64,000 bases of DNA, taken from contig NC_086382.1 of assembly GCF_036588685.1 (NCBI RefSeq), forward strand, positions 48,670,001-48,734,000. The letters run 5' to 3'. How positions within the stretch are numbered: the first letter of the stretch is position 1; the number at the start of each line of letters is the position of its first letter. The notes beneath the pieces are model-generated. The model saw only the letters and a list, made by a program, of their open reading frames with translations. It searched no databases and was not told where the DNA came from. Below are positions 62,630 through 63,401 of the stretch, one piece after another. The DNA comes from Mytilus trossulus. Taxonomy: Eukaryota. The position numbers and the translations under genes were made by a program.

Positions 62630-63401
62630 TGTAACTGGAGAGCATGTATATATCTACTCTACAAATTCATATCATCACCACCGGGATTCAAACCCAGGTT
62701 GTCTGCTTGACAGTCAGTGCGTTAACCCACTGAGCCAAAGAATCGATTCCCTAGCTCAGTTGATTAAGACTGGCTTTATATGTTCTACCTGTACTGAGGG
62801 GAAGCAACCCCGCTACACTATTCCCCCACCACAAGAGTCATCATATCTTCATATATGACTCTTAACAACACAAACCCTGGCTATACTCCAGATAACCATC
62901 ATGGATTTTTTAGTCGGGCGCCAAATGTAATCGGAGAGCACGTATCTACTCTACAAATTCATAACGTCACCACCAGGATTCGAACCCCAGTTGTCTGCGT
63001 GACAGTCAGTGTGTTAACCCACTGAGCCAAAGAATCAATTCCCTAGCTCAGTTGATTAAGACTGGCTTTATATGTTCTACCTGTACTGAGGGAAAGCAAC
63101 TCCGCTACACTATTCCCCCACCACAAGAGTTATCATATCTTCATTTATGACTCTTAACAACACAAACCCTGGCTATACTCCAGATAACCATCATTGATTT
63201 TTTAGTCAGGCGCCAAATGTAATCAGAGAGCACGTATCTACTCTACAAATTCATAACGTCACCACCAGGATTCGAACCCCGGTTGTCTGCATGACAGTCA
63301 GTGCGTTAACCCACTGAGCCAAAGAATCAATTCCCTAGCTCAGTTGATTAAGACTGGCTTTATATGTTCTACCTTTCCTGAGGGGAAGCAACTCCGCTAC
63401 A
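62630..63401 (-). mobile_element. Tandem-array TRIM (miniature non-autonomous LTR retrotransposon): 3 LTRs, 2 internal regions, tRNA-like sequence inside each LTR
   Basis: LTRs at 62630-62817, 62926-63109 and 63218-63401 (minus strand TGTAGCGG...TTACA). PBS TGGCGCC(C/T)GA lies 2 nt after the LTR; PPT GGTGGGGGAATAG precedes the LTR; 108-bp internals; 4-bp TSD CAAC. Confidence 0.9.

What the first reader, a model, noticed from the sequence alone, without database searches (positions are those of the whole stretch)
62630..63401. Three-LTR tandem miniature retrotransposon whose LTRs contain a tRNA-like Pol III promoter
Seen (minus strand): LTR-PBS-108 bp-PPT-LTR-PBS-108 bp-PPT-LTR, with TGT..ACA ends and a single CAAC TSD around the whole array, inserted into a family-C repeat. 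The PBS TGGCGCCCGA is complementary to the tRNA-Lys 3' end. Each LTR carries an A box (TGGCTCAGTGG), an Asp-like CTGTCA loop and a B box (GGTTCGAATCC; GGTTTGAATCC in the leftmost LTR). An oppositely oriented A-box-like TAGCTCAGTTG lies ~13 bp away. Known: plant Cassandra TRIMs carry 5S in their LTRs; I recall tRNA-bearing mollusc groups (Helenus/Ajax, bivalve TRIMs), so the family may be catalogued. Inference: a SINE/LTR hybrid, transcribed by Pol III and mobilised by a Gypsy-type integrase (4-bp TSD).
Basis: partly seen in the sequence, partly recalled or inferred. Interest (0 to 1): 0.7.

Follow-up and report, generated by a model that had tools for sequence, protein, structure and literature searches.

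The report
Tripled copy of mussel mini-retrotransposon Helenus-3
This is a three-ended tandem copy of an already published, gene-less jumping element of mussels whose end repeats carry a worn-down tRNA look-alike; the family is ordinary, but public RNA reads show a sharp RNA end just before that look-alike, likely its start site, and a hybrid copy elsewhere in the genome points to the larger retrotransposon that likely moves it.

Summary
The anatomy is real: three LTRs (184, 184, 188 bp), two 108-bp spacers, one 4-bp TSD. It is about 94% identical to the published consensus Helenus-3_MyGa (Kojima 2024, compared by eye), so the family is known. Dispersed copies carry their own 4-bp TSDs (24 of 28), which rules out a satellite. 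Five shared derived sites in two neighbouring LTRs indicate the array likely arose by local duplication after insertion. Pol III versus Pol II is not settled, and the main captured RNA ends too early to be the copying template. This scan noted Helenus elements before on other DNA, including the hairpin in Helenus-1.

The parts
63402..63405 (.). target-site duplication, copy 1 (CAAC on +)
63218..63401 (-). LTR A (5' LTR, 184 bp)
63313..63344 (-). hairpin in LTR A (antisense arm, palindromic centre, TTCTTT and A box)
   Evidence: same letters as the LTR B hairpin folded
63311..63321 (-). A box, LTR A
63268..63278 (-). B box, LTR A
63110..63217 (-). internal region 1 (108 bp): PBS at 63215-63205 (two mismatches to tRNA-Lys-CTT), hairpin at 63156-63124, PPT at 63122-63110
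62926..63109 (-). LTR B (middle LTR, 184 bp; shares five derived sites with LTR A)
63021..63052 (-). hairpin in LTR B, -19.0 kcal/mol on the sense strand against -9.9 on the other
63019..63029 (-). A box, LTR B
62976..62986 (-). B box, LTR B
62818..62925 (-). internal region 2 (108 bp): PBS at 62923-62913 (10 of 11 to tRNA-Lys-CTT), hairpin at 62864-62832, PPT at 62830-62818
62630..62817 (-). LTR C (3' LTR, 188 bp, 4-bp insertion)
62774..62781 (-). TATA-like motif (LTR positions 37-44; also 63365-63358 and 63073-63066), about 31 bp before position 69
62749..62749 (-). LTR position 69 (also 63333 and 63041): where RNA fragment ends of family copies pile up; likely transcription start
62729..62760 (-). 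hairpin in LTR C
62727..62737 (-). A box, LTR C
62684..62694 (-). B box, LTR C (GGTTTGAATCC, one mismatch)
62626..62629 (.). target-site duplication, copy 2 (CAAC on +)
62586..63584 (.). older interspersed repeat interrupted by the element (63584-63402 and 62625-62586)
   Evidence: empty site aligns to window 37633-37864, 69% over 239 columns

Best explanation
This is a tandem copy of the gene-less LTR retrotransposon Helenus-3_MyGa that inserted once, likely gained its third LTR by local duplication afterwards, and belongs to a family likely transcribed by Pol III from the tRNA-like boxes in its LTR and likely copied and integrated by a tRNA-Lys-primed Gypsy family found in the same genome. 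Steps. Shown: identity to the family, dispersed copies with 4-bp TSDs, strand-biased RNA of family copies with a sharp end at LTR position 69, and a chimera with the Gypsy leader. Inferred: Pol III starts at position 69 of the 5' LTR and a minority of transcripts would run to about the TTCTTT at positions 76-81 of the next LTR, giving about 305 nt with a terminal repeat of only about 13 nt; the two hairpin arms then lie at opposite ends of that RNA and are predicted to pair, which would hold the ends together for first-strand transfer; tRNA-Lys(CTT) would prime at the PBS, the PPT would prime the second strand, and the Gypsy integrase would recognise the near-identical LTR tips and leave a 4-bp TSD. 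The 292-bp unit (LTR A plus spacer) was then likely duplicated in place at roughly 40% of the insertion's age.
For: Family: 45 substitutions and one 4-bp insertion over 768 positions against Helenus-3_MyGa, same LTR (184), internal (108) and TSD (4) lengths (by eye; table row). Mobility: exact 4-bp TSD at 24 of 28 loci, never 5 or 6 bp; 12 of 16 single-LTR loci have one too. Array origin: A and B share five changes absent from C and rare among 58 other LTRs, no site groups A with C or B with C; chance about 0.012; A-B differ at 7 of 184, the spacers at 4 of 108, A-C and B-C at 14 each. tRNA origin: best of six host tRNAs tested is tRNA-Asp(GTC), score 52-57 against shuffle maxima 40-45. RNA: 45 of 50, 45 of 52 and 11 of 18 molecules end at position 69, depth just outside 2-3. 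Hairpin: z -6.2 and -7.0, sense strand twice as stable; sister family Helenus-1 keeps it with two double-sided and two one-sided changes (by eye); a 21-bp end-to-end stem is in both MFE and centroid of the predicted 305-nt RNA. Partner: L008 chimera under one TSD; its 308-bp insert matches 11 other places, a family with 1.31-kb LTRs that begin with the same 8 letters and end with 11 of the same 12, an 18-of-18 tRNA-Lys(CTT) PBS, 4-bp TSDs at 7 of 7 testable copies and protease-RT-RNaseH-integrase order; 5 of its 7 TSDs are among the 21 Helenus-3 TSD words, p about 2e-4.
Against: The other RNA end piles up at positions 9-10 of the 3' LTR (40 of 63, 31 of 71, 10 of 35), far short of what a copying template needs; no pile-up at positions 76-81 was seen. 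A TATA-like motif 31 bp upstream fits Pol II equally well. The ten youngest-looking loci carry T4 at LTR positions 49-52, before the proposed end (mean LTR-LTR difference 4.3 against 10.8 for 19 others), and Helenus-1 reads cross a T4: if Pol III reads through T4 here, TTCTTT is a doubtful stop. The three informative runs are one study, about 6% of each was read, library orientation was not checked on a control gene, and the fourth run (18 reads) shows no such ends. Within the family the hairpin is not more conserved than the rest of the LTR (1.7% and 1.2% against 1.6-2.2%). The chimera is a single locus and may only show that Helenus once inserted into that Gypsy. Two of the five shared A/B sites are CpG transitions.
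Confidence: 0.65

Rival explanations
1. Same family and mobility, but transcribed by Pol II from the TATA-like motif; the tRNA boxes are a passive relic of an old SINE insertion.
For: TATA-like motif at -31 from the observed end; T4 runs are crossed or sit before the needed end.
Against: The end lies 12 nt before the A box; the boxes are conserved across Helenus families (PMC10886601, section 3.5); Helenus-1 copies show no TATA at that place yet give hundreds of reads in the same runs; no poly(A) signal or poly(A) loose ends were noted in the tables shown.
Confidence: 0.2
2. The three-LTR array was made during reverse transcription (template switch or read-through RNA) and integrated as one unit; A and B look alike through later gene conversion.
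For: A single TSD encloses the array; both routes are proposed for Cassandra arrays (PMC7215508, passages); L008 shows a three-LTR unit that did integrate whole.
Against: Whole-unit integration makes the outer LTRs identical, yet A-C differ twice as much as A-B; the spacers differ by the same 3.7% as A-B; arrays L002 and L003 have identical spacers although 7-14% from this copy.
Confidence: 0.15
3. The hairpin matters at the DNA level or for RNA dimerisation and packaging, not for joining the RNA ends; the 234-nt RNA is the main, non-replicating product.
For: The hairpin centre is a perfect palindrome in both families; the captured RNA lacks the upstream arm.
Against: G-U pairs make the stem much stronger on the sense strand than on the other, which favours single-stranded RNA over a DNA cruciform; the start at position 69 splits the arms between the two ends.
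Confidence: 0.3
4. A tRNA-derived satellite or a cluster of tRNA genes, not a retrotransposon.
For: Head-to-tail 292-bp period.
Against: 24 of 28 dispersed loci with TG..CA ends and 4-bp TSDs; no tRNA gene called.
Confidence: 0.01

Closest known systems
Helenus-3_MyGa, Mytilus galloprovincialis (Kojima 2024, PMC10886601; read: main text parts 1-5 of 6, supplement part 6 and four searches in it)
   Same: LTR 184, internal 108, 4-bp TSD, tRNA-Lys-CTT PBS, about 94% identity.
   Different: This copy has three LTRs; the paper mentions tandem arrays only for zebrafish LTR-11_DR, gives no transcript data, names Gypsy-125_CGi only as an example with the same primer, and its main text has no 'hairpin', 'palindrom' or 'inverted'.
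Cassandra (5S-bearing plant TRIM; as described in PMC10886601 and in passages of PMC7215508; the 2008 paper itself was not held)
   Same: Internal Pol III promoter in the LTR, short terminal repeat of the RNA (18 nt reported), tandem arrays, predicted LTR-LTR pairing of the RNA.
   Different: 5S rather than tRNA sequence; plants; Pol III use shown by experiment; partner unknown.
Ty1 CYC5/CYC3 cyclisation (PMC3592414, passages)
   Same: Long-range pairing of the two ends of an LTR-element RNA required for reverse transcription.
   Different: Ty1 is autonomous and Pol II-transcribed; its pairing lies beside the PBS, not over a promoter box; here pairing is only predicted.
biv-TRIM (PMC6934838; read part 1 of 5)
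   Same: Bivalve TRIM with solo and tandem forms.
   Different: Terminal repeats 202-218 bp, internal 77-80 bp, no clear PBS; not this family.

Membership tests
Helenus (animal) | Two LTRs, short, no coding capacity | tested here: met
   Monomer 476 bp at most loci; no ORF of 80 aa or more over the element
Helenus (animal) | tRNA-like sequence in the LTR with TRGCY..YGG A box and GGTTC B box | tested here: met
   LTR C has one B-box mismatch
Helenus (animal) | PBS for a tRNA 3' end and a PPT | tested here: met
   10 of 11 and 9 of 11 to the genome's tRNA-Lys(CTT); PPT identical in 25 of 33 spacers
Helenus (animal) | 4-bp TSD | tested here: met
   24 of 28 loci exact, 2 with one mismatch
Helenus-3_MyGa | Sequence identity to the published consensus | tested here: met
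   About 94%, counted by eye, not by program
TRIMp3 | Promoter actually used by Pol III | tested here: inconclusive
   RNA end at position 69 fits; polymerase not identifiable from reads
Animal Helenus | Mobilised by a Gypsy element | tested here: inconclusive
   Chimera, shared ends, primer and TSD words; no functional test
tRNA gene | Foldable cloverleaf | tested here: not met
   ARAGORN 0 genes; no Rfam tRNA match
Retrozyme | Hammerhead ribozyme in the LTR | tested here: not met
   No ribozyme match at E up to 5
biv-TRIM | 202-218-bp repeats, 77-80-bp interior, no canonical PBS | tested here: not met
   184 and 108 bp with a PBS

The most novel reading that the evidence does not exclude
Bivalve Helenus elements are Pol III-transcribed from 12 nt before the A box, solve the problem of a very short terminal repeat by an antisense copy of their own A box that pairs the two RNA ends, and Helenus-3 (probably Helenus-1 too) is a parasite of one identifiable young Gypsy family, caught here in a chimeric insertion.
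Probability: 0.35. Interest if true: 0.55.

Novelty: already known. Interest (0 to 1): 0.3.

Why it matters
The locus itself is one more copy of a published family. What would matter is the side evidence: the 2024 paper says Pol III use by Helenus is unvalidated and that how such elements depend on a helper is unknown. A mapped start site, a predicted end-pairing stem and a named candidate helper make both questions directly testable in a common animal.

Tried and rejected
Satellite, tRNA gene, ribozyme and biv-TRIM readings were rejected. The idea that the LTR's terminal inverted repeat forms a stem that stops trimming at positions 9-10 is not supported: it is absent from the MFE and centroid of the 234-nt RNA. 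Column conservation of the hairpin within the family was uninformative. The 'goes back 292' joint is explained by the stretch holding only part of LTR B, not by circles. C10:74.04 Mb (L092) is not a second chimera but a copy with an unrelated insertion. A Fisher test compares non-independent pairs and is not relied on. The Rfam tRNA search scored only 63 of 95,367 candidates, so the tRNA comparison covers six tRNA types only. Copy number is a lower bound: 40 of 196 candidates scored. Literature searches; of the hits I opened two citing papers by passages, neither adds data on Helenus. Repbase and Dfam were not searchable, so the Gypsy family may already be catalogued; figures of the 2024 paper were not visible and could mark the hairpin.

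Full report
Observation. The minus strand holds LTR A (63401-63218), a 108-bp spacer, LTR B (63109-62926), a second 108-bp spacer and LTR C (62817-62630); one 4-bp duplication flanks the whole. A and B boxes are present in all three LTRs. No tRNA gene or Rfam family is called. The empty site aligns across its junction to an older repeat elsewhere in the window.

Identity. A paper search led to Kojima 2024. Short motifs from this family hit one entry of its Data S1, Helenus-3_MyGa, listed with LTR 184, internal 108, TSD 4 and a tRNA-Lys-CTT primer. Counted by eye, LTR A, B and C differ from it at 11, 10 and 8 positions (C also has a 4-bp insertion) and the spacers at 10 and 6: about 94% overall. 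The host is therefore a mussel or close kin (inference); the genome has 1.30 Gb in 541 contigs.

Family in this genome. The DNA search found 196 candidates and scored 40. Of the 30 loci fetched, 26 are two-LTR monomers and 4 have three LTRs. Of 28 loci with both ends, 24 have an exact 4-bp TSD, 2 have one mismatch, and 2 (duplicates of one another) have two. Of 23 further loci, 16 are single LTRs and 12 of these have an exact TSD. An exact 28-mer from the LTR occurs at 74 places, its reversed control at none.

How the array formed. A and B differ at 7 of 184 sites, the spacers at 4 of 108, A-C and B-C at 14 each. Against 58 other LTRs, A and B share five derived sites (positions 9, 73, 135, 146, 179), A has four private, B three, C six plus the insertion; none groups C with A or B (chance about 0.012; two of the five are CpG). 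Integration as one unit would start with identical outer LTRs, so duplication of the 292-bp unit after insertion is likelier; later conversion cannot be excluded. Tandem TRIMs are well known (PMC7215508 and PMC13570524, passages).

The tRNA-like part and primer. Of six host tRNA types tested, tRNA-Asp(GTC) aligns best, mainly from the anticodon loop to the T loop. The genome's tRNA-Lys(CTT) end matches the family's commoner PBS; this array has a G for A at one PBS position in both spacers, as do 14 of 31 other spacers, which would still pair as G-U.

The hairpin. Genomic Helenus-1 copies keep it (3 of the 5 LTRs the script could delimit were folded, sense stronger in all 3) with two double-sided and two one-sided changes relative to Helenus-3, read by eye. 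Similar palindromic stems are visible by eye in many, not all, of about 30 bivalve LTR consensuses in supplement part 6; I did not fold those. The main text of the 2024 paper does not mention it.

RNA. Four raw-read runs were laid twice. In three runs of one study, reads are strongly one-sided; taking the usual orientation named by the tool, they are sense. One end piles up at LTR position 69 (45 of 50, 45 of 52, 11 of 18), 12 nt before the A box and 5 nt before the tRNA-equivalent first base, which is where a tRNA-type Pol III promoter starts (recalled knowledge). At least two or three sequence variants share that end, so it is not one amplified molecule. The other end piles up at positions 9-10 of the 3' LTR (40 of 63, 31 of 71, 10 of 35), giving a 234-nt species that lacks most of U3 and cannot be the copying template; whether this is a true end or a priming bias is unexplained, and my stem-stop idea failed. 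The fourth run gave 18 reads and no such ends. Nearly all reads are 90-99% alike, so they come from other copies; expression of this array is not shown. Against Pol III: a TATA-like motif at -31, and T4 runs that are crossed or misplaced. TTCTTT is of a class shown to be a partial Pol III terminator in human cells (PMC3141230, passages). If RNA runs from 69 to about 81 of the next LTR, a 21-bp stem joining its ends is predicted, like Ty1 cyclisation in purpose.

The likely helper. L008 holds a Helenus LTR, 308 unrelated bases, then a full monomer, all under one TSD. The insert matches 11 other places, ten at 97-99%. These are the 5' interior of an LTR family with 1.31-kb LTRs; 3 of 11 stretches hold a 493-aa frame and 2 an unbroken 1317-aa frame, matching gag with a zinc knuckle and protease, RT, RNase H, integrase in Gypsy order. 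Its LTRs begin with the same 8 letters as Helenus-3, end with 11 of the same 12, and follow a similar PPT; 7 of 7 testable copies have 4-bp TSDs, one copy could not be tested; 5 of the 7 are among the 21 Helenus-3 TSD words (p about 2e-4). Of 15 perfect 18-nt PBS sites in the genome, 11 follow this family's LTR end and one is the chimera; families with shorter PBS are not counted. The chimera most simply arose when an RNA with Helenus nested in this Gypsy's gag was reverse-transcribed and integrated with Helenus ends (inference). It makes this family the best candidate helper, not a proven one.

Verdict. Interest 0.3, earned by the start-site reads, the hairpin and the candidate helper, none of which I found in the papers searched; Repbase, Dfam and paper figures were out of reach.

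Noticed in passing
L008 (G000:C7:82472436-82475913), 1011-1978: Chimera: Helenus LTR, 308 bp of a Gypsy PBS-leader-gag start, then a whole Helenus monomer, under one 4-bp TSD; LTRs differ by 0-1 base, and the first LTR carries the Gypsy's letter at position 178.
   Followed up: yes
L073-L083: Young Gypsy family with 1.31-kb LTRs, LTR pairs 99.8-100% identical in 8 of 11 stretches; six copies have only about 2.45 kb inside; several carry an extra 252-257-aa frame with C2H2-type zinc-finger matches near the 3' end.
   Followed up: partly
L146-L159 and loose ends: The sister family Helenus-1 is in this genome and gives several times more reads than Helenus-3; its reads also stop about 11 nt into the 3' LTR.
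   Followed up: partly
LTR positions 49-52 in L004, L007, L008 and others: The youngest Helenus-3 copies carry a T4 run in U3; reads that cross position 50 nearly all have the non-T4 letter.
   Followed up: partly
window 62864-62832 and 63156-63124: A second hairpin just before the PPT, with similar arms visible in several published mytilid consensuses; a candidate packaging signal.
   Followed up: partly
L002, L003: Two more three-LTR arrays, truncated, with identical spacers.
   Followed up: partly
L171 (G000:C14:35719645): An LTR-like end followed by a long reverse copy of tRNA-Lys(CTT), as if the whole primer tRNA was copied.
   Followed up: no
G000:C10:51.25-51.30 Mb; C3:16.98-17.34 Mb; C5:18.43-18.54 Mb; C14:68.06 Mb: Long tandem arrays of tRNA genes (Lys-Lys-Met, Lys-Arg, Asp-Ala, Asp); the tRNA-Lys(TTT) in the C10 array ends in a sequence that matches the PBS of other published bivalve Helenus families.
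   Followed up: no
window 1-661, 7841-8389, 39628-40355, 54746-55442: Other tandem repeats with periods 177, 36, 350 and 147 bp.
   Followed up: no
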